Origin: a virus
Taxonomy: Duplodnaviria > Caudoviricetes
Virus record (IMG/VR): IMGVR_UViG_3300011437_000014
Span: 1 to 39,968 of that record
DNA length: 39,968 nucleotides
Direction: 5' to 3' (one strand)
This document shows, piece after piece, positions 1,453 to 38,863 of the stretch (its first letter is position 1; the number at the start of each line of letters is the position of its first letter). Both the position numbers and the translations under genes were made by a program. The notes under the pieces were generated by a model, which worked only from the letters and a program-made list of their open reading frames with translations, was not told the DNA's origin and made no database searches.

Positions 1453-2205
1453 ATGCCCTCAATTCAAGAAGTAGAAAAGTATTGGGATGAGAGACCTTGT
1501 AATTTAAAACACTCATCTTCTCCTTTTTTAACTAAGAAATATTTTGATGAGGTAGAAAAGAGAAAATACTTTGTAGAATCTCACATACCTAAATTTGCTG
1601 AATTTCCTATTTGGAAGAATAAGAGAGTATTGGAGATAGGATGCGGAATAGGAACTGACGCGGTTAATTTTGCTAGGCATGGAGCTAGTTATACAGGTAT
1701 AGAATTATCTCCTTTCTCTTTATGGATTACTCAGGAAAGATTTAGAGTTTATGGACTTAAAGGTAGGTTAATAAGGGGTGACGCGGAAAATACTCTTCTT
1801 GATTATTTTGATTTAATTTATAGTTTTGGAGTAATTCATCATTCTCCTAATCCTCATATTATTATTCATAGAGTAAAAGAGATGATGCATCCTAATTCTA
1901 TATTTAAATTAATGCTCTACTCTAAATATTCTTATAAAAATTTCAGAATCAAGTTAGGTTTAGACCAGCCAGAAGCTCAGGAAAATTGCCCCATAGCTAA
2001 TACTTATTCTTATAAGGATATTAAAAATCTCCTGGGCGGCTTTAAGATTCTTGAGATTAAGAAAGACCATATCTTTAAATGGGATATAGAGTCCTATAAA
2101 AGATATGAATACCGGCATAATCTTATTAGTCAGGTTCCTGGATTTAAACAACTAGAAAAAGTAGCTGGTTGGCATACTCTTATTACTTGTTGTCTTAAGC
2201 CCTAA
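1453..2205 (+). CDS. Class I SAM-dependent methyltransferase (small-molecule/glycan type)
   Basis: Motif I VLEIGCGIGTD, acidic residue at the end of beta2 (GIELS), GDAE and FDLIYSFGVIHH. No DPPY/NPPY or PCQ DNA-MTase motif. Confidence 0.85.
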   Translation: MPSIQEVEKYWDERPCNLKHSSSPFLTKKYFDEVEKRKYFVESHIPKFAEFPIWKNKRVLEIGCGIGTDAVNFARHGASYTGIELSPFSLWITQERFRVYGLKGRLIRGDAENTLLDYFDLIYSFGVIHHSPNPHIIIHRVKEMMHPNSIFKLMLYSKYSYKNFRIKLGLDQPEAQENCPIANTYSYKDIKNLLGGFKILEIKKDHIFKWDIESYKRYEYRHNLISQVPGFKQLEKVAGWHTLITCCLKP

Positions 2206-3284: not shown

Positions 3285-3372
3285 TGGTGCGAGAGGAGGG
3301 AATCGAACCCTCACGACTTATTAGGTCAACGGATTTTAAGTCCGGTGCGTCTGCCAATTCCGCCACTCTCGC
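3285..3372 (-). tRNA. trnL-TAA: tRNA-Leu (anticodon UAA), CCA encoded
   Basis: Reverse complement is GCGAGAGTGGCGGAATTGGCAGACGCACCGGAC-TTAAAA-TCCG...GAGGGTTCGATTCCCTCCTCTCGCACCA. Acceptor stem GCGAGAG/CTCTCGC, D-loop GG, long variable arm, GTTCGA T-loop, discriminator A. Confidence 0.96.
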
Positions 3373-3379
3373 TGTTTAT

Positions 3380-3628
3380 TTATTCTGTTCTAGTCATCCA
3401 ATCCTCAGCTAACATATCTGTCTGAGATGCTAACCAGGGAACAATCTTATCATCTGCTGTTTTCATAGCAATAAATGGAAGATTAGGAATTACTGGTATA
3501 GAATTAATAGGAGATTTAGTAATTTGCCATCCTGTTACTAAGAAAAGATACATACCTTTTCCATTCCATCCGGAACGAAGAATTCTATTTCCTAAATTAA
3601 GTTGTTCTAACGCTTGTCCGTAATTCAT
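3380..3628 (-). CDS. tad2: DUF2829 / Tad2-like anti-defence (nucleotide-signal sponge) protein
   Basis: Hallmark motifs MNYGQAL..L..G..I.RSGWNGKGMYL and VPWLASQTDMLAEDW of DUF2829. Confidence 0.8.
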   Translation of the reverse strand: MNYGQALEQLNLGNRILRSGWNGKGMYLFLVTGWQITKSPINSIPVIPNLPFIAMKTADDKIVPWLASQTDMLAEDWMTRTE

Positions 3629-3795: not shown

Positions 3796-3935
3796 TTCTT
3801 TTCTCCTGGTTTATCTGTCTGTTCTAAAGCATCAAGAATTATTTTCTCATCTGCTAAAGATATATTTTGAATTTTAGGATTATCAGCCAATAATCTTAAA
3901 ATTATTCGACATAGAGCGGCTAGAATTGGGTTCAC
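3792..3935 (-). CDS. Hypothetical 47-aa protein (GTG start)
   Basis: Fills the gap exactly with GTGA/ATGA overlaps; MNPILAALCRIILRLLADNPK... Confidence 0.5.
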   Translation of the reverse strand: MNPILAALCRIILRLLADNPKIQNISLADEKIILDALEQTDKPGEKK

Positions 3936-5137
3936 TTCTTAAATCCCTCCACATAAGCTGCAACTTTAGGATTGTTCATGTTTAATCTGTAAGCTACTTC
4001 ACCTGCATGATTTTCAATATTCACAACTCCCATCTGCATTAGAAGAACAATTACTTTATCCAAGTCCTCATGGTCTAATCTTAATCCAAGCGCCTTAAGT
4101 ATTTCTTTTCTTCCTACTAATTCAGTAGACCGACTGGCTAAATAAATCAAAACTTCAGAACGCTTTTGAACATCAGAAGAATCTGTTTTCTTAAGTGCCG
4201 CGGTTAATCTCTTAGTTGGTATGATTAGAGGTAATGTAATCTCAAAACTTTCATCTATGTCTGCTCTAATCAATTTCTGGTCTGCTCTTCTACCACAAGA
4301 AATTAGCATCGCGTTCTTAACTACAAAGTCTAATACTCTTGATACGAATCCAGTCTCATCTGCCAACGCGGGCGCTTTATTTCTAACAAAATCTTGATAC
4401 CATAAATCTAAATAAACTCTATCTTCTTTATCCATCTGAAATGGCCCTTTCATCTCTGCTAAGGGCTTAACCATTTCAGCTAACTTATCTGCATTAGGAG
4501 ATTTATCGGGAGTGAACATCAGAGAATTAATAGTATTAGGCTTATTCTCTGCTATCATGAACATCCTACCGATTAATCCTCCATGAATATTCTTCTCTGG
4601 GACAAAATCCTTAAATAATGCTTCATTAGTAGCTGTTAACCAAGTAATAGTAGGACTAACTAAGTTATGAGATTCCCCTGCTTTTAACCTATAATCCCAT
4701 TTACCTTCGTTCCAAATCCGGTCAAAGAGGTCTGTAAAAATATCCATCGCGGATGGATTACTAATAATTGATGAACTAAGTTCTGACCCTATAACACATC
4801 CACATGAATCTTTAAGAGGTTCTTTTCCAGGTCTTGATTTAATCGTTCCTAGTTCTTTGATAATAGCTTCAATAGTAGCGCGCCCATTTATCAATTTAGT
4901 ATTATCTATTCGAGTGATAATTTTCCTAGCGAGAGCTATCGCCGGTCCCTTTCTTACTCCCGATGGACCATATAAAAGAACATAAATATTAGGATAAAGA
5001 TTATAGTTCCCTCCCATATCGAACCATACTTTATCCCTAAGAATTGCACTTATGGTGGCAAGTCCGCTCCAATAATAAAATCTTTGAGGTGCTTCATATT
5101 CTTTCGTTGTCTCTAATAATTCATCTAGGAAGGACAT
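3932..5137 (-). CDS. DUF3987/YfjI-like P-loop NTPase, putative replicative helicase, with C-terminal winged helix
   Basis: N-terminal 'EAPQRFYYWSGL', 'LYPNIYVLLYGPSGVRKG' Walker A, 'GGLIGRM' motif; lies downstream of the DNA polymerase gene. Confidence 0.75.
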   Translation of the reverse strand: MSFLDELLETTKEYEAPQRFYYWSGLATISAILRDKVWFDMGGNYNLYPNIYVLLYGPSGVRKGPAIALARKIITRIDNTKLINGRATIEAIIKELGTIKSRPGKEPLKDSCGCVIGSELSSSIISNPSAMDIFTDLFDRIWNEGKWDYRLKAGESHNLVSPTITWLTATNEALFKDFVPEKNIHGGLIGRMFMIAENKPNTINSLMFTPDKSPNADKLAEMVKPLAEMKGPFQMDKEDRVYLDLWYQDFVRNKAPALADETGFVSRVLDFVVKNAMLISCGRRADQKLIRADIDESFEITLPLIIPTKRLTAALKKTDSSDVQKRSEVLIYLASRSTELVGRKEILKALGLRLDHEDLDKVIVLLMQMGVVNIENHAGEVAYRLNMNNPKVAAYVEGFKK

Positions 5138-5756: not shown

Positions 5757-8233
5757 TAAGCCACCTTCCTTCTAAACTTCTCAAGATTACAATAATCAAT
5801 TCCTATTTCCACATCACAAGGTATTATGAGAGGCCGTCTAGGAATGGAACATTCATCAAATAAGATAGGTTCCAGAAAATAGCTTTTAATTTCCTCCACA
5901 TCATCATATAGTGCCATCCTATCCGGTATTAGAAAGGTCAGCGCGTCATGAGATTCACATACTATCTTAATATGCCAGAGTTTCTTAAGAACTGATAATC
6001 CTGCTTTTTTCGTAGAGTCTGAAACAGTTTGCTGGGGAATAAACGCGTAGGCACCTTTCCATAAATCTCTAGTGTCCATCTCATCAAAGAAATATCTGGA
6101 AGCACCATAGGTTCCGTAAATTCGTCTATTTTTACGAAGTAACTCTTGAATAGTATGATGAAACACAGTTTGAATCTTAGGAGTGTCCGAGGCCAAAACT
6201 TTAAGGCACTCACCAGCTCTCCATTCAGATATGCGTATCGGGATTTTGTATTTGCGTGCGTCTGTATTAACATTTATCATCGCCTCTCTTTTTGTAATTC
6301 CTAAGTGATAGGCATGTCTTAATGTTTTACCAACAAAACGCTCAGGACACTCGAATCCGAGAATCTTTTTAGAATAACTCTCCTCTTTACCTCCAAAGAA
6401 TTTAGCGGCAGTGAGAGCATGTTTGTCTCCCGTATCATAACTACGTAAGGTTTCTTCGTCATCTGCCAATAATGAGCAAACTCTCGCTTCCGCCTGAGAC
6501 TTGTCAATGTTGACGATGACATATTTTGGGTCACTGATAAGAATTGAGCGTAAGTCTTGCCCAATATCTCCATGCTTGGATATAGTTTGGAAAGCCCAAC
6601 CCATTTGTTCTGGTCTAATAGGAGGTTCAAGGACATTTGTAGAAGTTCTAAAGTTTTCAGTTCCAGTTATTTTAAAATTAGTTTTCATTCGGCCATCATA
6701 ATCAGGTTCAGCCTGAAGATAGCCAATAGATTTATTAACTCTTCGCCATTCTAAAATAATTTCACAAGTTCTAATCTGGTCTGGTTTCTTTACTGTATTC
6801 CCTAGTAATGCGGTTATGATTTGTTCCCCTGTCCCATCACGGCGAGGAATCTTCATCTTATCATAGAGAAGTTCATCTACTTGTTGCCAACTACCTATAT
6901 TAATAGGCTCTTTATATCCATAATTTTTACAGATGTCAAATAATTCTACTTCTAATTTAATTAACCAATTAATATATTTATGAATAAGAGCTTTTCTCTC
7001 ATTAGTATCTTCTTTAAATCCTACATTATCAATATGTTTATAAAGAGCATGGGTTTCCATTCTGAATAGAGAACTCTTAAATTCTGGGTCTATTTCTTGT
7101 AAATCCTTTCGCTGAACGTCAAATAATTCTCGGGTAACACAAGCATCTTTGCAGTTATAGAGGAAAAAATCTTCGATTTTATCAACTTTAGGATTGAATT
7201 CCCGACCCTCGAATTTATAATATGGTTCGAGGGTATCAATAGATGTATTAAAAGCCAGACCTTTAGGCATCTCACTAGAACGACAGTGAGCGCCAAGCAT
7301 AGTATCCCAATACAATCTAAGATAGAATCCAAGACGATTAATTTTATCTTCGTCATATTTAAAATTATGTCCAATAAAATTAAATTTAGTATCTGCTAGG
7401 AAATCAGCTAACATCTTCCAAATATAAGCTAAATCTCCTGTAGGTATAGTAGAAATCTTAAGCTTATAACTTTCATTTCCCTTCTTACTCTTAGCTTCTA
7501 CTTCAATAGGTAATGTATTCCAAAGAGGGATACAAAATCCTTCATAACTATTAAAACTTAACCCGATACAAACTGGTATCCCTTTAATAGCTTCAATATC
7601 TAACGCGCAATAAGGACTATTTCTATGTCTTTCTAAATATCTATAAACATCTGCTGATGTGCCGGCAATATGTAATAAACGGTGAGGTAATCTAAACTCT
7701 CTAAATTCTGATTGTTCTACTGCTCTTTTGACATCAAACTTTCTAACATATTTCTGCCAACTTTTCCATTGTCCTTCACCTGCACCATGAAGTTCTGCAC
7801 CAGGATGCCAAGTGAATATTGCTTTTTTACCTAAACATTGAAGAATAGAGCCGCGCCAGACGTTAATTCCATTATTCTTTCCCGACTTACCTACCATAGA
7901 GTAAAGAACGGGTTCACCCAAACCGAGAATAACATTAGGAGATACAGCATTAATCTCATTTGTGAGGTCTGCCATCGCTTCTGCATGATTTAATCCTATC
8001 TCTTTAAATTTTTTATGTTCATTATTAGGAAGCTGATGTTTGAATACGTAAGTTGTATAACAGCTATCTAGTTCGACTCCTGCCTCTCTTAAATCTTTTC
8101 TTAGAATTGAATAGGCCGCATTTACGAAAGGCCGACCGGCTATTAGTTCGTCATCTTTTGGAGCTAAGTCTACAATAGCAATTTTCGCTCCGAGAGGACC
8201 AATTCCTTCTATTCTTTGGGAAAGTTCAGACAT
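5756..8233 (-). CDS. polA: Family A DNA polymerase with N-terminal uracil-DNA-glycosylase-like domain and 3'-5' exonuclease
   Basis: ExoI LDIE, ExoII GHNFKYD, ExoIII YNCKDA; motif A DKSQAEAR, motif B RFVGKTLRHAYHLG, motif C SHDAL. N-terminal 'GPLGAKIAIVDLAP...GRPFV...TWHP' resembles UDG family 4. Confidence 0.93.
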   Translation of the reverse strand: MSELSQRIEGIGPLGAKIAIVDLAPKDDELIAGRPFVNAAYSILRKDLREAGVELDSCYTTYVFKHQLPNNEHKKFKEIGLNHAEAMADLTNEINAVSPNVILGLGEPVLYSMVGKSGKNNGINVWRGSILQCLGKKAIFTWHPGAELHGAGEGQWKSWQKYVRKFDVKRAVEQSEFREFRLPHRLLHIAGTSADVYRYLERHRNSPYCALDIEAIKGIPVCIGLSFNSYEGFCIPLWNTLPIEVEAKSKKGNESYKLKISTIPTGDLAYIWKMLADFLADTKFNFIGHNFKYDEDKINRLGFYLRLYWDTMLGAHCRSSEMPKGLAFNTSIDTLEPYYKFEGREFNPKVDKIEDFFLYNCKDACVTRELFDVQRKDLQEIDPEFKSSLFRMETHALYKHIDNVGFKEDTNERKALIHKYINWLIKLEVELFDICKNYGYKEPINIGSWQQVDELLYDKMKIPRRDGTGEQIITALLGNTVKKPDQIRTCEIILEWRRVNKSIGYLQAEPDYDGRMKTNFKITGTENFRTSTNVLEPPIRPEQMGWAFQTISKHGDIGQDLRSILISDPKYVIVNIDKSQAEARVCSLLADDEETLRSYDTGDKHALTAAKFFGGKEESYSKKILGFECPERFVGKTLRHAYHLGITKREAMINVNTDARKYKIPIRISEWRAGECLKVLASDTPKIQTVFHHTIQELLRKNRRIYGTYGASRYFFDEMDTRDLWKGAYAFIPQQTVSDSTKKAGLSVLKKLWHIKIVCESHDALTFLIPDRMALYDDVEEIKSYFLEPILFDECSIPRRPLIIPCDVEIGIDYCNLEKFRRKVA

Positions 8234-8514
8234 TACTCATCATCCCCATTCTTAATGGTTCTAAGAATAGTTAAAGCTTCCTCTCTAGTTTTAAGCCTAA
8301 GGTCTGGGTTAGTTTTTATTGCTCTTGCTAGATGAATAGCCTCAGAAACTGCTCCAATAGATAGTCCTAATTTTTGAGCAGTATCAGAAACTTTCCATTT
8401 ATCATTACGTTTTCCTGATTTATCTTTTCCTTTAGTTGTATGATAATCTAAAATAAATCGGGCGCGTTCATACCAACGTCTTTCTTCGCGTATCTTTCTT
8501 ATGTCATCACTCAA
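8233..8514 (-). CDS. HTH DNA-binding protein (ParB-type HTH half)
   Basis: WKVSDTAQKLGLSIGAVSEAIHLA helix-turn-helix; TAATG-coupled to the polymerase gene. Confidence 0.7.
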   Translation of the reverse strand: MSDDIRKIREERRWYERARFILDYHTTKGKDKSGKRNDKWKVSDTAQKLGLSIGAVSEAIHLARAIKTNPDLRLKTREEALTILRTIKNGDDE

Positions 8515-14922: not shown

Positions 14923-16995
14923 TTATTTCCTCCCAAACCTCTTCTTAATAATCATCTCAGAGAGTTCTCTAATAATATCATTCTCTTCCCACTTAATATT
15001 CTCTTCTCCTACATTCATACTTTTTCTGAAGAAAGTCCTCTTTCTTTCAACAATCTCAGTGAGCATGGAATCAACAGTCTGGTCAGCGATGAGATATGGG
15101 ACTCTAATTGATACTTTCTTAGGATTTTTATCCTCATTGAAAAGGAAATCCTGAAGGTATGTCGGATAATCTTGATGAGTAAGCGGTCTTGAAAATCTAA
15201 GTTCTGCTTGTTCTTCATTTGCAGGATTCCATTGTCTTTCTAACATCATTGCGTTCTGACAGAACTGAATATTTAGTCCCTCTCCTGATGCTAGAGTAGA
15301 GGCTATTAAGATTCTGCATTGGGGGTCATTTTTAAACTTCTCAATAACTCTATTTCTCTCTTCTGGTCCTCTACCCCCAAATAATCGGAGAGTAGTTTTA
15401 TAACCTCTCTCTTTTAGAAGTTTATCTAATCCTTCAAAAGTTTTAGCCACATCACCATTCTGAAGCATATCTCCCACATCAATATGATGATGAAAGATAG
15501 TTAATTTCTCTGCTTCATCGGGAGAATTTTCTAACCACTCTAATGCATCTTCTATTGCTATAGGAGTCTTAGCAATACCTGTAATATGCTTAAGGACCAT
15601 TATCTGTGCTGCAATATTCTTCGGGTCTTCACCATCTATCATTGCAGCTTTGATAATATGAGCTACTCTTTCTTCCGCTTGGTCATAAGCTTTAGCATGT
15701 AGAGCTTCCATATCTACATATCTAATCTCTCGTCTAATTTTAGGAAGGTCCGGGAGAACTACATCTCTCATCCTTCTAATAACTAAGTCTTTTGTATACT
15801 CTCTGAAGACGGGTATATTTCTAATTCCGCCTTGTTTAATTTTTCCGGTTCTATTGTCAAGGTATGTTTCCACCCAACGATTTTTAAAGTTCTCATAACT
15901 CGGAAACCTAACCGGGTCCAACATATTAAGAACCGGAAAGTATTCAGAACCTCTATTCTTCCATGGCGTTCCGCTAAGCGGGATAAAATATTCTGCTTTT
16001 GATACCAGTTTTCTAAGTTCCGCGGTTCTAGTAGAATCTGGATTTTTAAAGTGTTGTATTTCATCAGCTACTACCGTCTTATACCCAATAGAATCTAACT
16101 TCTCACTACTCATATTTCTGAGAAGGTCCATTGAGATAATATAGAGTTTAATTCCGGGAAGAATTCTTGAGCGCGGATTCTCAATAATCTGTCCCATGAA
16201 ACCAAATCCACACCATTCAAGAGCTTCTTTAAGAGCTTGAAGTTTAAGAGTAGTTTTGCATACCCAAAGAACAGGAGTAGTTACTTCTTTATGAGCAAAA
16301 CAAAATAGTAAAGCTTGAAGAGTCTTTCCTAGTCCCGGCTCATCAGCTATTAATGCTCTACCTCCTGAAGTCTCAAGAAATCTAATACCCTCTATTTGAT
16401 AAGGATAAGGTCTCTTTCCTGATTCTGTTACATAATTATCTAAGTCAAATCCAGAAGATTTAATAGATTCTGCTTTAACTAAATGTCCACATTTTAATTT
16501 AGTCCAACGGACCCCGGACATTATGATAGAAGATTGTTCCTCTGCCTGTTTACTACAAGTCGGGCAAAGTTTATTTACCCTATGAAACTGTCTCTTAGGT
16601 TTAGTCTCTGATGGTTGAATAGCTCTACCATTATCAAGATTAATATATGCTCCACAAGGTTTAGGGTCAGAAAGTCCTATCTCAATACATTTACTCTTCC
16701 ATACTTCATTATGCCCATGAGAGTGACCAACTAGAGCGTGTCCTACCTCATGTAAGATAGTATCTCTTAAGTCTGCTTCCGAGCGCGTATTGAGATGAAT
16801 TAAACTTAATTCTATTCTCTTTGAGTCATGCCAGCACCTTCCAATATATTTCTCTGATTTAGAAAATATTGTGCGCCATCCTTGTTCCCAAAGACTTTTA
16901 AATGATGTTGCATCAGTCCTTGCATCGAAGATTAATGTTCCTAATTTCTTTAATTGTTCATCGCACATTTCTTGTGCGTCATATTGTCTAACCAT
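14923..16995 (-). CDS. SprT-like metalloprotease / Zn ribbon / SNF2 (HARP/SMARCAL1-like) helicase fusion
   Basis: N-terminus GRC...IELS...DTILHEVGHAL...HGHNEVWK. Helicase motifs PYQIEG, DEPGLGKT, DEIQH, LSGTP, GEGLNI, WNP..EEQA..R. Likely start MVRQYD at 16995 (the track starts at 17031). Confidence 0.9.
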   Translation of the reverse strand: MVRQYDAQEMCDEQLKKLGTLIFDARTDATSFKSLWEQGWRTIFSKSEKYIGRCWHDSKRIELSLIHLNTRSEADLRDTILHEVGHALVGHSHGHNEVWKSKCIEIGLSDPKPCGAYINLDNGRAIQPSETKPKRQFHRVNKLCPTCSKQAEEQSSIIMSGVRWTKLKCGHLVKAESIKSSGFDLDNYVTESGKRPYPYQIEGIRFLETSGGRALIADEPGLGKTLQALLFCFAHKEVTTPVLWVCKTTLKLQALKEALEWCGFGFMGQIIENPRSRILPGIKLYIISMDLLRNMSSEKLDSIGYKTVVADEIQHFKNPDSTRTAELRKLVSKAEYFIPLSGTPWKNRGSEYFPVLNMLDPVRFPSYENFKNRWVETYLDNRTGKIKQGGIRNIPVFREYTKDLVIRRMRDVVLPDLPKIRREIRYVDMEALHAKAYDQAEERVAHIIKAAMIDGEDPKNIAAQIMVLKHITGIAKTPIAIEDALEWLENSPDEAEKLTIFHHHIDVGDMLQNGDVAKTFEGLDKLLKERGYKTTLRLFGGRGPEERNRVIEKFKNDPQCRILIASTLASGEGLNIQFCQNAMMLERQWNPANEEQAELRFSRPLTHQDYPTYLQDFLFNEDKNPKKVSIRVPYLIADQTVDSMLTEIVERKRTFFRKSMNVGEENIKWEENDIIRELSEMIIKKRFGRK

Positions 16996-17227
16996 TATGT
17001 TGTCCTGAAACAATAATCCACTTAGCTCCACATCCTACAGCTAAGCAATGATAATGAATATGTCTTCTATACTCTAAGGAATAAATACAATCATCATTTG
17101 CTGGATTATGAGGATTACAATATACCACTTGAATTGGTCTTCTGTTACAATTCCAGCATGAATGTCTAAAGTTACTAAGATTGATTGTTTGCTTTTTGTG
17201 ATTCTGTAAATAATTTTGCATAACCAT
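16988..17227 (-). CDS. Cys/His-rich Zn-binding hypothetical protein
   Basis: CWNC...HIHYHCLAVGCG.KW; start uncertain. Confidence 0.5.
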   Translation of the reverse strand: MVMQNYLQNHKKQTINLSNFRHSCWNCNRRPIQVVYCNPHNPANDDCIYSLEYRRHIHYHCLAVGCGAKWIIVSGQHNG

Positions 17228-17429
17228 TACTAAGCATCTTAAGATTATCTTCTAAAATGTTAATCTTCTGATTAAGCGTCTCAATCATTGAGAGAAGATT
17301 AGTAATTCTTTCACTTTGGGTTATATTCATTTCCCCTTGAACAGTTAATACCTCTCTAATTAGCTTATTCGATTCTGCCATTGTCTCTACTATTAATAGG
17401 ACATCTTCAATAGGAACAGATAAGCTCAT
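17175..17429 (-). CDS. Coiled-coil hypothetical protein
   Basis: Heptad pattern; GAGG RBS; ATGA overlap. Confidence 0.65.
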   Translation of the reverse strand: MSLSVPIEDVLLIVETMAESNKLIREVLTVQGEMNITQSERITNLLSMIETLNQKINILEDNLKMLSNGYAKLFTESQKANNQS

Positions 17430-18364
17430 TTCTTTTCCTCAGCATTATCAGAAGAAGTCCCAACTACCTTATCAAACTCTCTTTGTTTCATTACCTTGAC
17501 CATTTCTTGATATTTCTCAAGAGACATTCCAAAAGATTTAGCCTCTTTCTCCATTGCAGTTAGCTTAACCTTACTCGGTCCTTTAGCCGCCTGTTCTCTT
17601 CCCTTCGTTATAGAAGAGATATTATTCTGAGCGCGCTCATTAGCCTTTACCTTATTAATGTAATCGACTAGAGGAACGAGATTTTCTTTGATTTGGAATA
17701 GCATTACTTGGAGAAGTTCAATCTTACTTTCTACCTGCTCTTTACTTACATTAACTAGAGCAATAGCATGATGATTGAAAATGTCATTACGATGATTTAG
17801 AACATGGTCAGAAGAGGTAAATCTGAGAGGCTCAGGAATCTGAAGTAAATCGTAAAATTGAGTCAACGCGGGCGAGTCTACTCTTATCTCAGTCTTAACT
17901 TTCTCTAATTCTGCTCTTTCTACTCCTAAAACATTCTTAAGGAGAGGTTCATAACATTCTTCACAGATAAAATAGTCTTTCTCCCACATTCTAGTTGCGA
18001 GTTTAAGACCAAATCCGCGTTCGAGGCATGATTGACAGTATTTCTTACCATCATTAGGAGCTTTCTTATTGTCTAGAAAATGAGTAGGTTTAATTGTGCA
18101 TACTTTTTCTTTATTACTATCTGGTATTAAATGAGGTTCTCCACAATCATCGCAAATGTAATGAGTAGGCTTTTCCTCTTTTATTTGGGGTTCATCGGTT
18201 CCTAGTAATATCTCAGGTTCAGGTTCTTTAATAGTTGCTCTTTCAGCTAAACTTAAAGAACCATTCCTCTTAGCAAAGTAACAAGAGGTGCATAGTTCCC
18301 CTGTTATATTAGGAGAGGTTACTTCCTTCTCTATCCCCAGAGTTTTACATTGATTACAGTTCAT
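17426..18364 (-). CDS. Multi-Zn-finger protein with C-terminal helical domain
   Basis: Several CxxC pairs (CNQC/CTSC, CDDC, CQSC/CEEC). Confidence 0.75.
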   Translation of the reverse strand: MNCNQCKTLGIEKEVTSPNITGELCTSCYFAKRNGSLSLAERATIKEPEPEILLGTDEPQIKEEKPTHYICDDCGEPHLIPDSNKEKVCTIKPTHFLDNKKAPNDGKKYCQSCLERGFGLKLATRMWEKDYFICEECYEPLLKNVLGVERAELEKVKTEIRVDSPALTQFYDLLQIPEPLRFTSSDHVLNHRNDIFNHHAIALVNVSKEQVESKIELLQVMLFQIKENLVPLVDYINKVKANERAQNNISSITKGREQAAKGPSKVKLTAMEKEAKSFGMSLEKYQEMVKVMKQREFDKVVGTSSDNAEEKK

Positions 18365-18367
18365 AAA

Positions 18368-18571
18368 TTAGTTCTCTAAAGTAGAGAGGAAAATTCTTTG
18401 AGCTTGTATATTTTGAGAAGCTATTTGAGCTAACTCTAAACTGGATTGAGAAGCAACTATTTTGGCATCTTTAATATTATGTTCTCTACCTACAATAGTA
18501 AAAGTATTGTAGAGCACATCAAATCCAATCGAGGAACGTCTAATTTGGAACATTAGATTATTCCAATCCAA
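18368..18571 (-). CDS. Hypothetical protein
   Basis: Short ORF; start could be MFQIRR at 18553 (TAATG coupling). Confidence 0.55.
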   Translation of the reverse strand: MDWNNLMFQIRRSSIGFDVLYNTFTIVGREHNIKDAKIVASQSSLELAQIASQNIQAQRIFLSTLEN

Positions 18572-18750
18572 AAAGAATGTTCTTCTTCGTAATTAGGAGG
18601 ATTATTACCTATTGACCAACTTAAATCAGTAGCTACAAATTCTCCTAATTTCTTTAGAAGTTTATTTATATCTGTTGATTTGAATCCCATTTCTAAATCA
18701 CTATCTTCGTTTAATGAGGTGATGTAAAGATAATACATTTTAAACTCCAA
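18553..18750 (-). CDS. Hypothetical protein
   Basis: Likely start MYYLYI behind GGAG. Confidence 0.55.
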   Translation of the reverse strand: MEFKMYYLYITSLNEDSDLEMGFKSTDINKLLKKLGEFVATDLSWSIGNNPPNYEEEHSFWIGII

Positions 18751-18798
18751 TCTTTGAGATAATCTACTAACAACACGTTATTCTAACGAATAGGTAGA

Positions 18799-19089
18799 TT
18801 AATCTGGCCATTTCTTGAGAAATTTCTTTTGTTCAATCTCAATATTTTTCCTTAAATGTTCAATTTGTAATCTAAGTGCATCCCCTAATCCATTCCTATA
18901 ACCCATTCTAATTAATGAGTCATTAGATTCTTTAGAGATAAAAAGTAAATAATCAACGCATCTGAGTTTAAGTTCTACTTGCTTTTCTTTCAGCGCGTCA
19001 ATATCTTTTTGCTCTTCAGGATTAGCCATTAAAATACTCCCAAATAAAGTCAATATCTCTCTGACTATTAATCTGATAATCTTTCCCAT
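18799..19089 (-). CDS. Hypothetical protein, first gene of the leftward operon
   Basis: 96-aa ORF directly downstream of the 19297-19325 promoter and its leader. Confidence 0.6.
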   Translation of the reverse strand: MGKIIRLIVREILTLFGSILMANPEEQKDIDALKEKQVELKLRCVDYLLFISKESNDSLIRMGYRNGLGDALRLQIEHLRKNIEIEQKKFLKKWPD

Positions 19090-19130
19090 TAATTGTGATA
19101 ATCATCTTCTTTTCCTTATTAAGTCTTGAA

Positions 19131-19585
19131 CCATAATAATTCTAACTTAAAAATATCATATAAGCTAGAGGTTCAAGTTCAGTCAACTATCAATCAAAGG
19201 TCGGCTCGGAGTCGGTCAAAGGTCGGTCAAGGCGGACCCCTCCTAAGTCGTTGACTCCGAAGGACTTAGCTCGCATACCCTCTCTCTCCCTAGTGAAGTA
19301 TACCACCCTCTGCCCCGCCTGTCAACTACCCCTAGGGTGTATATGATAGTTCTTCTATATATATATAAAATTATATAAGACACCCCTCTAAGACCCTATC
19401 CAGAGGGGGTGTATAGGGGGGATATATGATAGGGGGGAGAGGGGGAGGGTATCTCGTAAGTCGTTGATGTAGTTAGGGTTAGGTATGATTAGGTTTGACC
19501 GACCTTAGTTCGACCTTAGACCGACCAAGGACCGATTATTGACTGAATATGAACTAAGAAATATATGATATTTAAGAATTATTGG
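19131..19585. repeat. Large imperfect inverted repeat with 11-bp iterons and (TA)6 centre; putative replication origin
   Basis: Mirror pairs about ~19362: ATATCATATA 19153/TATATGATAT 19571, TTCAGTCAA 19178/TTGACTGAA 19547, GGTCGGTCAA 19230/TTGACCGACC 19495, ATACCCT 19275/AGGGTAT 19452. Confidence 0.85.
19297..19325 (-). promoter_or_regulatory. Sigma70-type promoter for the leftward early/replication operon
   Basis: Minus strand reads TTGACA-17 nt-TATACT with an extended -10 TG. Confidence 0.85.
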
Positions 19586-19749
19586 CATTAGGAGAGATAT
19601 TACTGAAATTGGGATACTGATTCCGCGCCTAATGGATATATTTGAAAGTGTAGCGATTCGATACTTTACAATCTCTTTACATTTTACAAATCATATATCG
19701 ATAGGAAAGGATAAGGACGCGACCGATCGGGTAAGTTTATGATAAGACA

Positions 19750-19789
19750 ATAAAAAACCCCAGAACCCTATTTCTAAGGCTCCGGGGTT
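19750..19789 (-). terminator. Rho-independent terminator
   Basis: Minus strand AACCCCGGAGCC...GGTTCTGGGGTT followed by TTTTATT, just downstream of the 19813 stop codon. Confidence 0.8.
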
Positions 19790-19812
19790 AGTCTAACGTC
19801 CTGGGTTAGAGC

Positions 19813-20370
19813 TTACTTCGTGCGGAATATTTCGAGCGTATACTCAGCAGGAACCAAACCAAACTCCTGAAGAGTCCTGTGTGCTGTCTCATCAGAGACG
19901 TTCTTTGTCCGCATTGCATCTCGAATCATACGGGCGTAAGCATTACCCATTGATTCCTCAGTGAGCGGCTTATGCTGATTGAATACACTCTGATAGCGTC
20001 GGTTCTTCGATGAAACGCGAAGGCTATCATTGATTGTTTCCAGAAGCGCGACGACAGCCTTTCCGGTTTCCACAGAACCTTTCAGTGCTTCATTGATAAA
20101 AGCAATCTGGTCATCGGAAAGTTTCGCACCTTCGAGTCTAAGAGCGGAAACGAGAGAAGGAACGACGGGATACTTAAATCCTTCGCTATCGTTCTTGTAA
20201 ATCTCTTTGCCGTCCTCGTCTTTGACGGTAATCTGAAAGGTTCCGATCCTGATTTCGATTTCAGGATATTCCGCGTGAGACTCTACAGCCGCGGCTACAG
20301 CTTCCTGATTCGAAACCTTACCAGAGAGCTTTTCAGTAACCTTGTCTGCGATGGTTTTCTTGATTCTCAT
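19813..20370 (-). CDS. GC-rich monocistronic hypothetical protein, probable immediate-early gene
   Basis: Start MRIKKTIADK at 20370 with AGGTGA RBS (the track extends to 20421); own terminator; codon usage differs from the rest of the genome. Confidence 0.8.
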   Translation of the reverse strand: MRIKKTIADKVTEKLSGKVSNQEAVAAAVESHAEYPEIEIRIGTFQITVKDEDGKEIYKNDSEGFKYPVVPSLVSALRLEGAKLSDDQIAFINEALKGSVETGKAVVALLETINDSLRVSSKNRRYQSVFNQHKPLTEESMGNAYARMIRDAMRTKNVSDETAHRTLQEFGLVPAEYTLEIFRTK

Positions 20371-20712
20371 TGTCGTTTCACCTGTATATGTTTGAGGTTT
20401 AAGATAAAGTATTTCCTTCAAGAGGGTAGAGCTAAAGCCTAAGCCTTAGTCCTATCATTGAGTGACGCGCCTTTATCTTAATCCGGCCCGCGCTGAAGGC
20501 CGCTCGTTCTACCGTTCCTGAATGGCGCCGCGAATGCCCGTCTCAGGATGAGGGAACATCAAGAGGATACCATAAGAGTCAAGACCTGAAACAAGAGAAT
20601 TGTAAAATCTTTTGAACTGGGCACGCGCTGACCATCGCGGTCTAATCCTTTCCTCCCCCAAGCTCCATCCCTAAGAATCATTAACGGTCCCTACCCTATA
20701 TGGCCTGCTAGA

Positions 20713-20873
20713 AGAGTCTCATCTGGGCTACTGCGCGTGAAGTGTGGAAAGCACACTAAGATTGCCCAAATATTAATTATCTTTTTAATTTTATTTTTTT
20801 TTTATTTTACGGGTCCCATCTTTACTTTTAGGAAAGAGTCTCATTTTTATTCTTATAGTTATTAGAGTCTCAT
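20713..20873. repeat. AGAGTCTCAT direct repeats (three, plus one degenerate copy)
   Basis: Copies at 20713-20722, 20835-20844 and 20864-20873; GGGTCCCAT at 20811. Confidence 0.7.
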
Positions 20874-21073
20874 CTATCTATGAAACAAAGTAGTTAAAAT
20901 AAATTATATCCTATCTCATCTAAATCCAGTTAGGTAATGCTAGGCCGAGATAAGGGCCGAGAAGGTAGCTAGGATAAGCCAGGCTAGGATATAGGTAGAC
21001 TTAATCCCTGATTAATAGTTCAGCGCAGGATAAGGTCGAGCGCGGGCTAATAGGTCATCCTAGAGGCTCTCGT

Positions 21074-21236
21074 CTGAAAGTTCAGTTTATCATTTTAAAT
21101 TACTATAATATTTTTAGTTTAGTTAATCTAAGAAAATATGATAAGAGATAGGAGGGATTGACTTTTAATCGGAGGTGTGATAAGATGAAGGAACCTAATA
21201 AAAATAAGCGGACTGAAAGTTCAGACTGAAAGTTCA
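21074..21236. promoter_or_regulatory. Three CTGAA-AG-TTCA(G) palindromic operator-like sites flanking the rightward promoter
   Basis: Copies at 21074-21085, 21213-21224 and 21226-21236. Confidence 0.65.
21158..21186 (+). promoter_or_regulatory. Sigma70-type promoter for the structural operon
   Basis: TTGACT-17 nt-TAAGAT with an extended -10 TG. Confidence 0.75.
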
Positions 21237-21302
21237 TTCTCTTCTATTATGATAACTAGACTATTGTTGAGTTATAAAGGTTAGAAGTGTAAAGAGATTC
21301 TT

Positions 21303-21419
21303 ATGTTTATTATATCCTGTCTTAAATGCAGAAGAAGTTTTGGAAGAGTTGGACATATCTTAATGCATTGGATAGGCAGCGCGTGTAAAGGAATCGAGCA
21401 ACCGGAGTTACCATTATGA
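21303..21419 (+). CDS. 38-aa C2HC zinc-finger microprotein
   Basis: MFIISCLKCRRSFGRVGHILMHWIGSACKGIEQPELPL; ATGA-coupled to the next gene. Confidence 0.6.
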   Translation: MFIISCLKCRRSFGRVGHILMHWIGSACKGIEQPELPL

Positions 21420-21919
21420 ATATTATAGTTCCTGATGAAGAACTTCAAGAAATTAGTATTGAAGATGCTATCAAATCTAATGATAAATCTCAGATTATTA
21501 TTAAGGGAGAATTTCAAGGAGATAGAGGAAAAGGCAGAGATGAATTAACTAAAGAAATTATAGCTCATGATGCGATTGCTTTAGGAGCTAGTAGAGCAGC
21601 AGAAATTCATGGAATAGAAAAACCTTCAGCTTCTAGATATTCTAACGGTCATGATATTAAAGATGAAGATAGCAAAGCTGGAATATTAGCAGCGCGTCAT
21701 AATATTGCAGATAAAGCGACCGCGAAATTAATGCAAGCACTTGATTTATTTGACCCTTCTTGTATTGAGAAGCATGTAGATATAGTCAAGTCAGCTAGCA
21801 TGCTTGCTAATATAGTAGATAAGGTAACTGGTAAGAATAATCAAGGTAATGCGGTCCAATTAATTCTTCATGGACCTAAACAAATTAATATTAATAGTTA
21901 TGAGGTAATTGATGTTTAA
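21416..21919 (+). CDS. HTH protein, putative terminase small subunit
   Basis: GGAG RBS; HTH-like ASRAAEIHGIEKPSASRY; helical middle and C-terminal beta strand; first large gene of the late operon. Confidence 0.55.
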   Translation: MNIIVPDEELQEISIEDAIKSNDKSQIIIKGEFQGDRGKGRDELTKEIIAHDAIALGASRAAEIHGIEKPSASRYSNGHDIKDEDSKAGILAARHNIADKATAKLMQALDLFDPSCIEKHVDIVKSASMLANIVDKVTGKNNQGNAVQLILHGPKQININSYEVIDV

Positions 21920-32321: not shown

Positions 32322-33632
32322 ATGTATCAACTTTCAATTTTACTTCCTTCTGGACCTAACAATTCAGAGAAGTTAGCCAGAATATTAACTAATCTTAAGG
32401 AGACTATTTCAGATATTAGTAAAATAGAATTTGTAGTTTGTTTAGATAACGTAATTAATGAAGTTAATATCGAACGAAATGGTAATGTTGTTTATGTTTT
32501 CGCTCCTCCAAGTCAGCATCGTTCAACATTCTTTTTAGAGGCTTGGAAAGCATCAACTGGCCGATTTGTTTTAATGGCTAATGATGATATTATCTTTAAG
32601 ACAAAGAATTGGGATACTTTAATTCCTTATGATAAATATCCAGATGATTTAGTATTATTTTATTTTAAAGATAATCAATTTAATGAATCATTTTCTTGTC
32701 ATCCTATTTGGTCAAGAAAGGTTATGGAATTTGAACCTACATTACTTGACCCGTTATATTACATTACTAAATGTGACAATACTATTTGGGACTCTCATCC
32801 AGGTCATAGGAGACATTATCTTCCTGAAATAGAAATTGAACATATTCAGACTCCTTATGGACCGGAATGGGCGCCTTATTATGAGATGGATAATCGAACC
32901 TACTGGCAGGGAAATTTAGTAGGAATTAGAAATAAGGTTAGACATTGGATTACAGCTCAGACAGAACTTTATAATGCTAATGTTTTAATAGGAGTAGTTA
33001 CAGCAGAATATGCCAGGCGCGCGGATTTTTATGACCATTTAAATGCAATGGAAAGACCTAAGAACTCAATGAATATTTCAGTTCATGGTCAGTCTATTGC
33101 AAATAATAGAAATAAAGTAGTGGATAATGCTTTAGTTTATGGAAGCTCTCATGTTTTATTTTTAGATGATGATGTTATTCCTAAACCCGAGCTTCTCTAC
33201 TCTCTATTAAAGCACGATAAAGATATAGTTTGTGCTTTACAATGTCACAGAAATTTCCCTCATGCTCCTATTTTATTTGGAGAGTATGTAGGAAAAGAGG
33301 GATTTAGAAAATTAAATTTTTCCAATTTAACTGATGGATTAGTAAGAGTTGGGGCTGCCGGATTAGGATGTGTTCTAATTAAAACAGATGTCTTTAAGAA
33401 AATGGAAGCTCCTTGGTTTAGATTTGGAGAATTTAGAAAAGACCAGATGGCGGAAGATACTGGATTTTTTAAACGCGCCGGGGAGTTAGGAATTGAAGTT
33501 TATTGTGATTTAGGTTCTCAAGTAGGTCATATTGCTTCAATGATAGTTAGACCTATTAAGAAGCATATCGGATGGATTGTAGATTACGATACTAATAGTC
33601 AACAAGGTAGTGTGAGTTTTAAAGGATTATAA
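32322..33632 (+). CDS. Tandem GT-A (GT2-like) glycosyltransferase
   Basis: Domain 1: LSILLPS, MANDDII, WD, CDN, IEH. Domain 2: IANNRN, LFLDDDV, GLGCVLIK..VF, AEDTGF, VGHI. Confidence 0.85.
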   Translation: MYQLSILLPSGPNNSEKLARILTNLKETISDISKIEFVVCLDNVINEVNIERNGNVVYVFAPPSQHRSTFFLEAWKASTGRFVLMANDDIIFKTKNWDTLIPYDKYPDDLVLFYFKDNQFNESFSCHPIWSRKVMEFEPTLLDPLYYITKCDNTIWDSHPGHRRHYLPEIEIEHIQTPYGPEWAPYYEMDNRTYWQGNLVGIRNKVRHWITAQTELYNANVLIGVVTAEYARRADFYDHLNAMERPKNSMNISVHGQSIANNRNKVVDNALVYGSSHVLFLDDDVIPKPELLYSLLKHDKDIVCALQCHRNFPHAPILFGEYVGKEGFRKLNFSNLTDGLVRVGAAGLGCVLIKTDVFKKMEAPWFRFGEFRKDQMAEDTGFFKRAGELGIEVYCDLGSQVGHIASMIVRPIKKHIGWIVDYDTNSQQGSVSFKGL

Positions 33633-35253: not shown

Positions 35254-35949
35254 ATGGCAACTCCTGTTGTTATAATGCAAAGTGCAGCTTCATTACTTAA
35301 TGATACTGCACGAAGAAAGTTTACGGATACTGCTTTAATTCCTTATCTTAATATTGCATTATTAGACTTACAGGAAATTTTTCAACTTAATAATATTCCT
35401 GTAACTAATGAAGTTAATTCTCCTCCTGTAACGGTAGCAGCAGGAATAGATAGAATTGCTTTTACAGGAACAGTTCCTACGTTACCTCCTGATTTAGTTG
35501 AAATTAGACAAATGTGGGAAAGTCCTGCGGGATTAAATCAATGGACTCCCATGAAGAAGTTTGAATTTTTACCTCATTATTTAGAAAATGGAATTACTTC
35601 TTCTCAGTTTATGTTGTGGGCTTGGATTGATGATGAAATTAAATTAATTGCAGCTAATGCTGATAATGATATAAAATTAAATTATATTAAAACTATTTTT
35701 CCTACCGTTACTGCAGCCAATAAAATTACAAATCTTAAAGGTGTATTATCTCAGTCTTATTTACAGTATAGAACCGCGGCACTTGCTGCTTTCTTTGTTG
35801 GAGAGAATGAGGATAGGGCAGCGGTTCTTAATGACCAAGCTAATGATGCAATGATGAAGAGTTTGCAAATTAGTACTAAAGGTAAGCAATCTATTTCAGT
35901 TCGTCGTAGACCTTTTAGGGCAGCTTTTAAAACTAGGAGTGTATTCTAG
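35254..35949 (+). CDS. Putative head-tail adaptor (tail tubular A-like)
   Basis: N-terminal helices 'AASLLND...LIPYLNIAL', beta insert and C-terminal helices; position fits. Confidence 0.6.
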   Translation: MATPVVIMQSAASLLNDTARRKFTDTALIPYLNIALLDLQEIFQLNNIPVTNEVNSPPVTVAAGIDRIAFTGTVPTLPPDLVEIRQMWESPAGLNQWTPMKKFEFLPHYLENGITSSQFMLWAWIDDEIKLIAANADNDIKLNYIKTIFPTVTAANKITNLKGVLSQSYLQYRTAALAAFFVGENEDRAAVLNDQANDAMMKSLQISTKGKQSISVRRRPFRAAFKTRSVF

Positions 35950-37439: not shown

Positions 37440-38863
37440 TGGCCGCTCCAACCAATATTGACGCAGCATCCGCTACTCTAATCAGTAGCCTACCTTATAA
37501 TATCATTCAACAAGTAACAGATGGGGGAGTTTGTTATACTGTTTGGTATAAAATTGTAGGTATTCCTGGAACTTTAGGAATAAGTGTAACTGCAGCTAAT
37601 TCTAATGGAGCCGGGAGTTATGTTCCAGACCTTAGTTTTTATGAATCAGACGGTGTTACTCCAATAATAGGAACAAACCTTTTAAATCCAATACAAGTTG
37701 GAACTTTAGCAGCAGTTACATATTATATTGTAATTGAGCCAAATGTGCCTGATTTATCATCGGCACTAATGGAATTAACAGTTATTAATAATCCTACAGC
37801 TCCTATATTAGCTTCTTATATTTTAATTCCAGATGATTCTAATTCTTTTGCTCCCCTTCCAGGAGTAATTTATAATCCTAATACTAATGAAGTAATTAAC
37901 TTAGTATTTCCATTTGCACAAGGAGAAGGTGGAGATATATTTCAAAGCGGAGTAATAGTATTAGAAGATTTCCCAAATGATGGTATAGTTTTTTATGCTC
38001 CTGATTTTGATGTTATTACATCGATTAGTTTAGCTCCTAATTTTGGATTTATAGCAATTAGAGTTAATCACTTTTTAAATTTAGTTATAGTTTTAGCTGA
38101 TAAAGGAGCAACTAGTTTAATTAGAACTTACAATGATGCGGGTGTTCAACAATCAACAATTACTGCTGCATTTGGTGGTTCAGAATCAATAGCATTAGCT
38201 AATGATGGAACCACCATGTATTATACTTCTGGAGGAATAGTTAGAAGGTGGAATATTAGTCTTAATTCTGCAATGGCAGATTTTATGGCGGCAGTAGGAA
38301 CTTATACTTTATCAGATATTTTAGTATTAGACAATGACGATGTTTTAGTATTATATCCATCTAATTCAAGTGGAGGAAATGTTCTTGTTATAAGATATAA
38401 CTCTGCTGGAGTTTTACAACAAACATATGATTTAGGTGCCCCCAGTTTCGTATTTAATCCTTCTGGTGCTATCCCCCGGATGGGATATGATGCTAATGGG
38501 GGTCAAACAGCATTTTGGGTATATTGGTTTCCTGTTGCTGGGATTTCAAGGGCAAGTAAAATTCAAATTAGTGATGGTGCTGTTCTTTTAGAATCTAATA
38601 TTAATGCTCAGCAAGTTGGAGAATTTACTCTTCCAAATCCTAGTGTTAATTTTGGACCCAGTTTATCATGTCCTATTATTATTTTAGGGGATAATAATGT
38701 ATTTACTACTCCTGGAAATAATACAGATGGAACATTATTTGTTACAGGAAGTCCTCCAGGGCCGAATGCTTCAGGATTATATGAAATGATAATTGGAAAA
38801 ACAAATGATACTATTTGGGTAGATGTTAGTTTAGGCACTCAAACAGATGTTCCTATTCCTTAA
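37439..38863 (+). CDS. Beta-rich tail-associated protein (Ig-like N-terminus plus beta-propeller-like repeats)
   Basis: TAATG-coupled; 'TVWYK', 'TYYIVI', repeated 'IR.YN.AGV.Q.T'. Confidence 0.6.
   Translation: MAAPTNIDAASATLISSLPYNIIQQVTDGGVCYTVWYKIVGIPGTLGISVTAANSNGAGSYVPDLSFYESDGVTPIIGTNLLNPIQVGTLAAVTYYIVIEPNVPDLSSALMELTVINNPTAPILASYILIPDDSNSFAPLPGVIYNPNTNEVINLVFPFAQGEGGDIFQSGVIVLEDFPNDGIVFYAPDFDVITSISLAPNFGFIAIRVNHFLNLVIVLADKGATSLIRTYNDAGVQQSTITAAFGGSESIALANDGTTMYYTSGGIVRRWNISLNSAMADFMAAVGTYTLSDILVLDNDDVLVLYPSNSSGGNVLVIRYNSAGVLQQTYDLGAPSFVFNPSGAIPRMGYDANGGQTAFWVYWFPVAGISRASKIQISDGAVLLESNINAQQVGEFTLPNPSVNFGPSLSCPIIILGDNNVFTTPGNNTDGTLFVTGSPPGPNASGLYEMIIGKTNDTIWVDVSLGTQTDVPIP

What the first reader, a model, noticed from the sequence alone, without database searches (positions are those of the whole stretch)
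19131..19585. ~450-bp diverged mirror element with helically phased iterons: candidate bidirectional origin in an arm with no visible primase
Seen: short blocks are mirrored about ~19362 with nearly invariant spacing (coordinate sums 38724-38727), while the sequence between them has diverged. Each arm has three to four 11-bp units with a GGTCGG-like core (left 19196-19228, right 19494-19537). The centre is (TA)6 at 19356-19367. Inference: conserved spacing with sequence drift points to two oppositely oriented protein-loading platforms around a melting centre rather than a recent duplication. The whole early arm is in this window and encodes PolA, SSB and a DUF3987-like NTPase, but I recognise no DnaG or AEP primase. 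This may be an undescribed initiation system.
Basis: partly seen in the sequence, partly recalled or inferred. Interest (0 to 1): 0.85.

Follow-up and report, generated by a model that had tools for sequence, protein, structure and literature searches.

The report
Mirror origin of primase-less phages
A two-sided DNA switchboard (an easily melted core flanked by mirror-image protein-binding arrays) recurs across a large group of phages with no recognisable primase and is likely where they open their DNA to start copying it, which would give a testable handle on how such phages start DNA synthesis.

Summary
The mirror is real: the best of 79,012 axes in the genome, and spanned by independent assemblies. 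It sits at the same place in relatives (significant in 23 of 27 elements tested). Each arm reads, outward from an AT core: inner palindrome, purine/pyrimidine tract, IHF-like 25-bp site, then 4-5 helically phased repeats. Repeat sequence differs by clade and follows the neighbouring gene g202 (19813-20421), not the small terminase, the HTH or the Zn-finger protein. The DUF3987 protein folds as an MCM-like SF6 helicase. No primase was found in the window or in four closed relatives. Cultured Pseudomonas phages PaP2 and FBPa48 (genus of PaMx41 and 119X, a published primase-less puzzle) carry the same geometry. Against a pure origin: synonymous-site GC skew shows no replication signal, and in Caulobacter phage Kuura the genome end falls 56 bp from the core, so the site is also tied to terminal-repeat formation. 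Best reading: a symmetric helicase-loading origin at the inner edge of the terminal repeat (0.5); packaging start 0.27; operator/centromere 0.13. No function was tested. Interest 0.78.

The parts
19175..19229 (+). Left array, five 11-bp phased units, core TCGGTC
   Evidence: no comparable tandem pair elsewhere in the genome (best outside 14.8 bits against 34.2)
19244..19268 (.). Left IHF-like site, TAAS-N17-STTA; one half close to WATCAANNNNTTR
   Evidence: consensus from PMC4585315; binding by IHF is inferred
19275..19292 (+). Left pyrimidine tract, mirrored by the purine tract at 19432-19452
19297..19325 (-). sigma70-type early promoter (11 of 12 consensus), firing away from the core; left arm only
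   Evidence: same position in 21 of 26 elements by scan, none at the mirror position of the right arm
19326..19345 (.). Left inner palindrome zone (TGTCC-N8-GGACA in many relatives; diverged here)
19351..19379 (.). AT core with (TA)6; predicted unwinding element
   Evidence: only one other 25-mer in the window is as weak; TA run polymorphic
19380..19412 (.). Right inner inverted repeat; zone where the terminal repeat of phage Kuura begins (56 bp from its core)
   Evidence: the terminus in this genome is inferred only
19457..19481 (.). Right IHF-like site
19494..19537 (-). Right array, four 11-bp phased units, inverted relative to the left
19756..19789 (-). Intrinsic terminator that closes g202 before the element
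19813..20421 (-). g202 (probable start 20370): no known family; beta-hairpin, long helix, C-terminal three-helix bundle; candidate array-binding initiator
   Evidence: binding not tested
20690..20820 (.). Second weak A/T tract upstream of terS; candidate outer boundary of a ~1.4-kb terminal repeat
   Evidence: weak: contig depth and analogy with Kuura
21416..21919 (+). Probable small terminase (by position; HTH-like motif seen by eye); does not track the arrays
3932..5137 (-). Stand-alone DUF3987 protein: MCM-like SF6 helicase, AAA+ plus winged helix, no primase domain
   Evidence: PMC4889955
5756..8233 (-). UDG-fused family A DNA polymerase
17426..18364 (-). g312, Zn-finger/coiled-coil protein; a similar-sized gene sits in this position in all four clades; possible helicase partner
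   Evidence: function not tested

Best explanation
The element is a conserved two-armed mirror around an easily melted AT core and is likely a symmetric replication origin, where a phage protein (probably g202) would coat both phased arrays and host IHF-like protein would fold them back to open the core and load two helicases. Shown: the anatomy, its conservation, the uniqueness of the arrays, the MCM-like fold of the helicase, and the lack of a recognisable primase. Inferred steps: (1) g202, expressed from its own promoter and closed by a terminator, binds one unit per helical turn. (2) An IHF/HU-family protein makes a U-turn in each arm, as in the loop-back model of oriC. (3) The core melts, helped by transcription away from it. 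(4) One DUF3987 hexamer is loaded per arm and the UDG-PolA follows. (5) Primers come from host DnaG, from a transcript or from nicks beside the core; this step is open. The site probably lies at the inner edge of the terminal repeat and may also launch the synthesis that duplicates that repeat.
For: Mirror significant (at most 5 of 200 shuffles) in 23 of 27 elements, with terminase identity down to 38%. 11-bp period in both arms in 15 of 15 clade A+B elements. Core is the weakest 25-mer in 11 of 18 genomes and has one rival in 4 more. IHF-like site scores p<0.05 in at least one arm in 17 of 27. Arrays are unique in 9 of 9 genomes scanned. g202 is the only one of 10 proteins more alike between array-bearing clades A and B (0.13) than between sister clades B and C (0.06). 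Within B, g202 groups the three same-motif phages (0.77-0.83 against 0.56-0.65) while TerS does not (0.45-0.48 against 0.50-0.53). Helicase model pLDDT 88.8 with top PDB hits MCM, E 2e-10. Weak core plus mirror in 5 of 7 distant GenBank phages found by helicase or polymerase similarity. Inverted period-10 arrays 133-184 bp from the core in PaP2 and FBPa48. Not seen in LUZ24 or P744, which have primase-helicases. Phased iterons, IHF and an AT-rich element define known origins (PMC5043065, PMC6742236; passages).
Against: GC skew at fourfold sites is about zero in early (-0.036), late (-0.029) and g202-like genes (-0.018), so there is no replication signature. The terminal repeat of Kuura starts 56 bp from its core, and the PaP2 and PaMx41 records start about 40 bp from theirs, which fits a packaging site. 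Clade C (5 genomes) and G010 have the same replisome and an AT core but no phased arrays. Aeromonas phage P5 has no mirror and Tiera only a weak one. The partial control CRP-207 showed a short AT-rich mirror at its weakest core (0 of 100). g202 has no ATPase or known initiator fold. Its co-variation rests on few genomes, could come from linkage or fast drift in clade C, and within clade B the SNF2 helicase follows the motif too. No DnaA boxes in the window element. Centres and the IHF pattern were chosen after looking at the data.
Confidence: 0.5

Rival explanations
1. Packaging-initiation and end-forming site: terminase cuts beside the core to make the left end of the terminal repeat, and the arrays and IHF-like sites assemble the cutting complex, as cosB does in lambda (lambda layout recalled, not checked in a paper).
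For: Kuura has a 606-bp terminal repeat by PhageTerm (PMC9959647, passages) that starts 56 bp right of its core. PaP2 and PaMx41 records start about 40 bp left of the core. In the window, contig pieces overlapping 19415-20790 have relative depth 1.38 (n=9) against 1.03+-0.19 (n=45), not explained by GC. Several contigs end near the core.
Against: TerS and TerL do not track the arrays. Packaging runs one way, so it does not need a mirrored outer arm. FBPa48 and Neko records start elsewhere, and how the PaP2 and PaMx41 starts were set is unknown. The depth boundaries were chosen after the fact, contig depth is not copy number, and 4 of the 8 runs may be the source. Contig ends at TA or poly-A runs are expected from assembly alone.
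Confidence: 0.27
2. Operator or centromere-like site: g202 binds both arrays and loops the DNA to control the early promoter or to position phage DNA in the cell, like ParR on parC or StbA on stbS.
For: R1 parC has two sets of five 11-bp repeats around a promoter (PMC2241845, passages). R388 stbS has an 11-bp cycle and needs no NTPase (10.1101/2022.04.29.490116, passages). An early promoter lies between the arrays in 21 of 26 elements. g202 has its own promoter in most relatives.
Against: Here the arrays are inverted, about 265 bp apart, and none lies at the g202 promoter or any other promoter. The most perfect mirrors (clade B) lack the sigma70 promoter by scan. A conserved melting core is not needed by an operator. 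No partition NTPase or integrase was found and no relative was found in GTDB genomes.
Confidence: 0.13
3. Hairpin-telomere resolution site or recombination (att/res) site.
For: Symmetry about a (TA)n centre with IHF-like sites between arm repeats and core resembles such sites (recalled).
Against: No protelomerase or recombinase family hit in the window or four closed relatives. The centre is not a perfect palindrome and is poly-A in several relatives. No joints or inversions in 8 runs.
Confidence: 0.04
4. Assembly artefact or recent chance duplication.
For: Contigs sometimes break at the TA run (run X1).
Against: Independent contigs span it without joints. Arms are only 45% complementary. The same layout occurs in diverged and cultured phages.
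Confidence: 0.01

Closest known systems
Iteron origins of plasmids and lambda (P1, F, RK2, pSC101, R6K; PMC5043065, passages)
   Same: Helically phased, replicon-specific repeats, an AT-rich unwinding element, an IHF/HU-type bend, a neighbouring candidate initiator gene, and nearby transcription.
   Different: Two inverted arms around one core, a 10-11-bp period, no DnaA boxes, no Rep-family protein, and a phage SF6 helicase with PolA instead of host DnaB and Pol III.
E. coli oriC loop-back module (PMC6742236, PMC4585315; passages)
   Same: Order of core, IHF-like site, then an array of initiator sites.
   Different: Duplicated as a mirror; the repeats are not DnaA boxes and change between clades; g202 has no AAA+ domain.
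Archaeal ORB-DUE-ORB origins that load MCM (PMC6742236, passages)
   Same: Oppositely oriented sites flanking an AT-rich element, and an MCM-family helicase.
   Different: No Orc1/Cdc6; the helicase lacks the MCM N-terminal domain; the one characterised DUF3987 helicase runs 5' to 3' (PMC11724360, passages).
Phage N4 replisome (PMC4889955, PMC10201439; passages)
   Same: UDG-fused PolA with a DUF3987 helicase.
   Different: N4 dns carries an AEP primase domain; this group has none.
Jamesmcgillvirus phages 119X, PaP2, PaMx41
   Same: Stand-alone DUF3987-type helicase beside PolA, same gene layout around an intergenic mirror with inverted phased repeats. 119X is listed in print as lacking a primase (PMC4889955).
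   Different: Different repeat sequence, weak whole-arm similarity, and ORF1 shows no significant match to g202 profiles. No origin for them was found in my searches.
Plasmid centromeres R1 parC and R388 stbS
   Same: Two arrays with an 11-bp period around a promoter.
   Different: Those arrays are direct and autoregulate the binder's own promoter (39 bp apart in parC); no melting core is described.

Membership tests
Iteron-type replication origin | Helically phased repeats unique to the locus | tested here: met
Iteron-type replication origin | AT-rich unwinding element beside the repeats | tested here: met
   (nearest-neighbour energies recalled)
Iteron-type replication origin | IHF/HU-type site | tested here: inconclusive
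   partial consensus match in 17 of 27 elements with a pattern chosen after viewing; host unknown
Iteron-type replication origin | Cognate initiator of a Rep family | tested here: inconclusive
   no Pfam, PHROG, NCBIfam or fold match for g202; co-variation only
Iteron-type replication origin | Starts DNA synthesis or supports autonomous replication | not testable with these tools
   needs nascent-strand mapping; skew gave no signal
Bacterial oriC | DnaA boxes | tested here: not met
   none within 300 bp in the window; 1 of 27 family elements has one, at the edge
Archaeal ORB origin | Orc1/Cdc6 initiator gene | tested here: not met
   no such family among 65 ORFs
Archaeal ORB origin | MCM-family helicase | tested here: met
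   AAA+ and winged helix only
Terminase pac/cos site | Virion DNA end at the site | tested here: inconclusive
   met in distant Kuura; only a depth hint in this genome
Terminase pac/cos site | Repeats bound by TerS | tested here: inconclusive
   TerS does not co-vary with the motif; binding not testable
parC/stbS centromere | Direct repeat arrays at the binder's own promoter | tested here: not met
   arrays inverted and absent from the g202 promoter
Protelomerase target site | Protelomerase gene and a near-perfect palindrome | tested here: not met
SF6 DUF3987 helicase (gene 3932-5137) | MCM-like AAA+ with C-terminal winged helix | tested here: met

The most novel reading that the evidence does not exclude
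One symmetric site both starts replication and defines the genome end: nicks 40-55 bp either side of the melted core supply 3'-OH primers, two SF6 helicase-PolA machines copy the two strands in opposite directions by strand displacement, and the same reaction duplicates the terminal repeat. This primase-free initiation system would be shared by a widespread podovirus group that includes 119X and PaMx41.
Probability: 0.2. Interest if true: 0.92.

Novelty: new variant of a known kind. Interest (0 to 1): 0.78.

Why it matters
A global survey of viral replication proteins names Pseudomonas phage 119X as a notable case with no primase and suggests non-canonical priming (PMC4889955). This finding supplies a candidate start site and a candidate initiator gene position for that replisome type, and the geometry is present in cultured members of that genus; PaMx41 is already editable with Cas13a (10.1101/2022.03.30.486325, passages). 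It would be a bacterial-virus origin that loads an MCM-like helicase from two mirror-image arms, and possibly couples initiation to genome-end formation. It also shows that the database label 'DNA primase' on these DUF3987 genes is probably wrong.

Tried and rejected
GC skew: the window's cumulative minimum lies at about 19.5-20.5 kb but follows the coding-strand switch; fourfold-site skew is flat. HTH 8233-8514 as array binder: absent in G002, G016 and G017, which have arrays. g202 fold: no hit above Z 5.0 in 48,161 chains, no viral hit at E<=0.001, no PDB sequence hit, no Atlas hit; weak matches cover only the three-helix end. g312: Atlas hits under 0.8, leads only. Complex prediction g202 plus helicase: no verdict. 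Rfam: nothing at 18400-21500. GTDB scan with the helicase alignment: 118 pattern hits, none confirmed, so the host is unknown. A pattern scan for promoter plus two inner palindromes in viral contigs found 0. One search used a pattern one base too long and is uninformative. No RNA holder was listed. Trees for TerS, TerL and the AAA protein did not finish; pairwise scores were used instead. Earlier findings of the scan: none. A GAGTCTCA motif near terS is not conserved across genomes. L103, L001, L003, L004 and L100 are this genome or near-identical to it and were not counted as relatives.

Full report
Setting. The window is one 39,968-base phage record without terminal repeat. A late arm on the plus strand carries terminase, capsid and an SU10-type adaptor. 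Holders are freshwater sediment and groundwater metagenomes. Closed relatives are 43-50 kb, so a few kb are probably missing, between tail-region genes. The host is unknown.

Observation. Confirmed. Axis sum 38725 gives 103 of 230 complementary pairs, the best of 79,012 axes, and 0 of 200 shuffles reach the gapped score. Three of four runs not marked as possible source hold a single contig across the element with no joint. Among four possible-source runs, three span it, one breaks at the TA run, and one shows a longer TA run.

Anatomy. Outward from the AT core (19351-19379), each arm has an inner palindrome zone 35-55 bp out, a pyrimidine/purine tract, a 25-bp TAAS-N17-STTA site about 105-110 bp out, and an 11-bp-period array 130-190 bp out. 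One half of each 25-bp site is close to the IHF consensus WATCAANNNNTTR (PMC4585315 and 10.1101/382655, passages); reading it as a symmetric IHF-family site is my inference. The left arm alone holds a sigma70 promoter firing into the early genes. To the right lie a terminator and g202.

Conservation. Searches with TerL, SNF2 and g202 and whole records gave 27 elements including the window, always between the early arm and terS. The mirror reached at most 5 of 200 shuffles in 23 of 27; L115, G015, G006 and G020 missed. Centres were picked from earlier mirror scans or AT runs, so this test is not blind. Helicase trees (the SNF2 tree is the quick one) give four clades. All 15 elements of clades A and B have best period 11 in both arms. 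Clade D mostly has period 10. Clade C (5 genomes) and G010 have no arrays. Repeat cores differ by clade. Arrays are unique in 9 of 9 genomes scanned. The core is the weakest 25-mer in 11 of 18 genomes, with one rival in 4 more, and 2, 3 and 13 rivals in the rest (energies recalled). The promoter is found in 21 of 26 left arms and at the mirror position of no right arm.

Which protein. Of 10 proteins compared, only g202 is more alike between A and B (0.13) than between sister clades B and C (0.06); TerS gives 0.10 against 0.33 and the helicase 0.28 against 0.57. Within B, three phages with the same motif have g202 scores of 0.77-0.83 against 0.56-0.65 to a fourth with another motif, while TerS gives 0.45-0.48 against 0.50-0.53; SNF2 follows the motif as well. 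The HTH is missing in three array-bearing genomes. This points to g202 but rests on few genomes and cannot separate binding from linkage. g202 is a small family (65 representatives at E<=0.001, a few of them partial or repeat-like hits) with a confident model from residue 45 and no clear fold match.

Replisome. The DUF3987 model (pLDDT 88.8) matches MCM subunits (E 2e-10). This agrees with its published assignment to SF6 (PMC4889955, passages) and with a characterised 5' to 3' DUF3987 helicase (PMC11724360, passages). No primase family appeared in 65 window ORFs or in 242 ORF pieces (from ORFs of 70 aa or more) of four closed relatives. A divergent primase is not excluded. Host DnaG serving a phage helicase is known from SPP1 (PMC3561973, abstract). 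Primer-independent activity is reported for the YerA41 polymerase (PMC9023294, abstract), placed in a UDG-fused subfamily (PMC13697223, passages); kinship with this PolA was not tested.

Distant and cultured phages. In 5 of 7 GenBank records found by helicase or polymerase similarity, the weakest core of the early/late divergence region is flanked by a mirror at 0 of 200; Tiera and a partial record missed. PaP2 and FBPa48 have inverted CAAGGT arrays of period 10, 133-184 bp from an AT core, though whole-arm similarity is weak (13 and 5 of 200). Their layout matches the window: terminator, then a 212-aa ORF in the g202 position, with no significant profile match to g202. Aeromonas P5 has the TA core but no mirror. 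Controls LUZ24 and P744 show none; the partial control CRP-207 shows a short AT-rich mirror. 119X, of the same genus as PaP2, is named in print as lacking a primase.

Evidence for a genome end. Kuura has a 606-bp terminal repeat by PhageTerm (PMC9959647, passages). It begins 56 bp right of the weakest core, which has a period-10 array on the left and only two inverted copies on the right. PaP2 and PaMx41 records begin about 40 bp left of the core, FBPa48 and Neko elsewhere. In the window, 9 contig pieces overlapping 19415-20790 by over 40% have relative depth 1.38 against 1.03+-0.19 for 45 pieces outside (59 listed pieces used; 84 more were not shown by the tool). The bounds were chosen after the fact and contig depth is not copy number, so this is a weak hint of a ~1.4-kb terminal repeat holding g202.

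Evidence against the origin. Fourfold-site GC skew is flat in all gene classes, so the skew minimum is a coding effect. Clade C replicates with the same enzymes without phased arrays. No function was tested.

Verdict. A real, widespread cis element that works like an iteron-IHF-core origin built twice in mirror image. It is not a member of oriC, ORB, parC or protelomerase-site families by the features tested. Origin 0.5, packaging start 0.27, operator or centromere 0.13. Ten literature searches listed no description of this element; two searches returned nothing, only top listings were seen, subscription papers are missing from the library, and I opened no supplements (the supplementary file of PMC4889955 bears on the primase claim). 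Lambda cos layout and T7-type repeat duplication are recalled, not checked.

Noticed in passing
window 3380-3628 (-): Tad2-like anti-defence protein (Pfam PF11195, E 3e-25).
   Followed up: no
window 3285-3372 (-): tRNA-Leu(TAA); the same tRNA is annotated in EBPR podovirus 3.
   Followed up: no
window 14923-17031 (-): SNF2 helicase fused to an N-terminal SprT-like domain; clade D relatives and G020 have a form about 170 aa shorter.
   Followed up: partly
window 8233-8514 (-): Lone HTH directly upstream of PolA, where distant phages have a full ParB-like or methylase gene; possibly a remnant. Cold-shock-domain genes sit there in G006 and G007.
   Followed up: partly
window 20421-21416; G007, G009, G015, G017, G018 upstream of terS: Second structured non-coding region with an A/T tract; several relatives show a G/C run, a further IHF-like site and a sigma70 promoter before terS (seen by eye). 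Kuura's outer repeat boundary lies at such a G/C run.
   Followed up: partly
g202-like genes, 15 genomes: Higher GC at fourfold sites than other early genes (0.41 against 0.22 in the window), as expected for a gene tuned to a higher-GC host.
   Followed up: no
G004, G011, L012, L022: The g202-position gene of clade D is inverted in these records.
   Followed up: partly
L124 / G021 left arm: Clade-A-type repeat motif in a genome whose helicases group near clades B and C; possible cassette exchange. Its g202 is not on the contig.
   Followed up: partly
L225 (MW202554) near 35886: Perfect DnaA box 40 bp from the AT core of its mirror, the only such case.
   Followed up: no
L104, L109, L111, L114, G001, G005, G011, G017 inner arms: 18-bp palindrome TGTCC-N8-GGACA 28-60 bp from the core, often in both arms; binder unknown.
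   Followed up: partly
window 1453-2205 and 32322-33632 (+): Methyltransferase and glycosyltransferase genes among late genes; possible virion or DNA modification.
   Followed up: no
L233, L239, L224, L226 records: Stand-alone DUF3987-type helicases are annotated as 'DNA primase' or 'putative primase' in GenBank/RefSeq; probably a propagated mislabel.
   Followed up: partly
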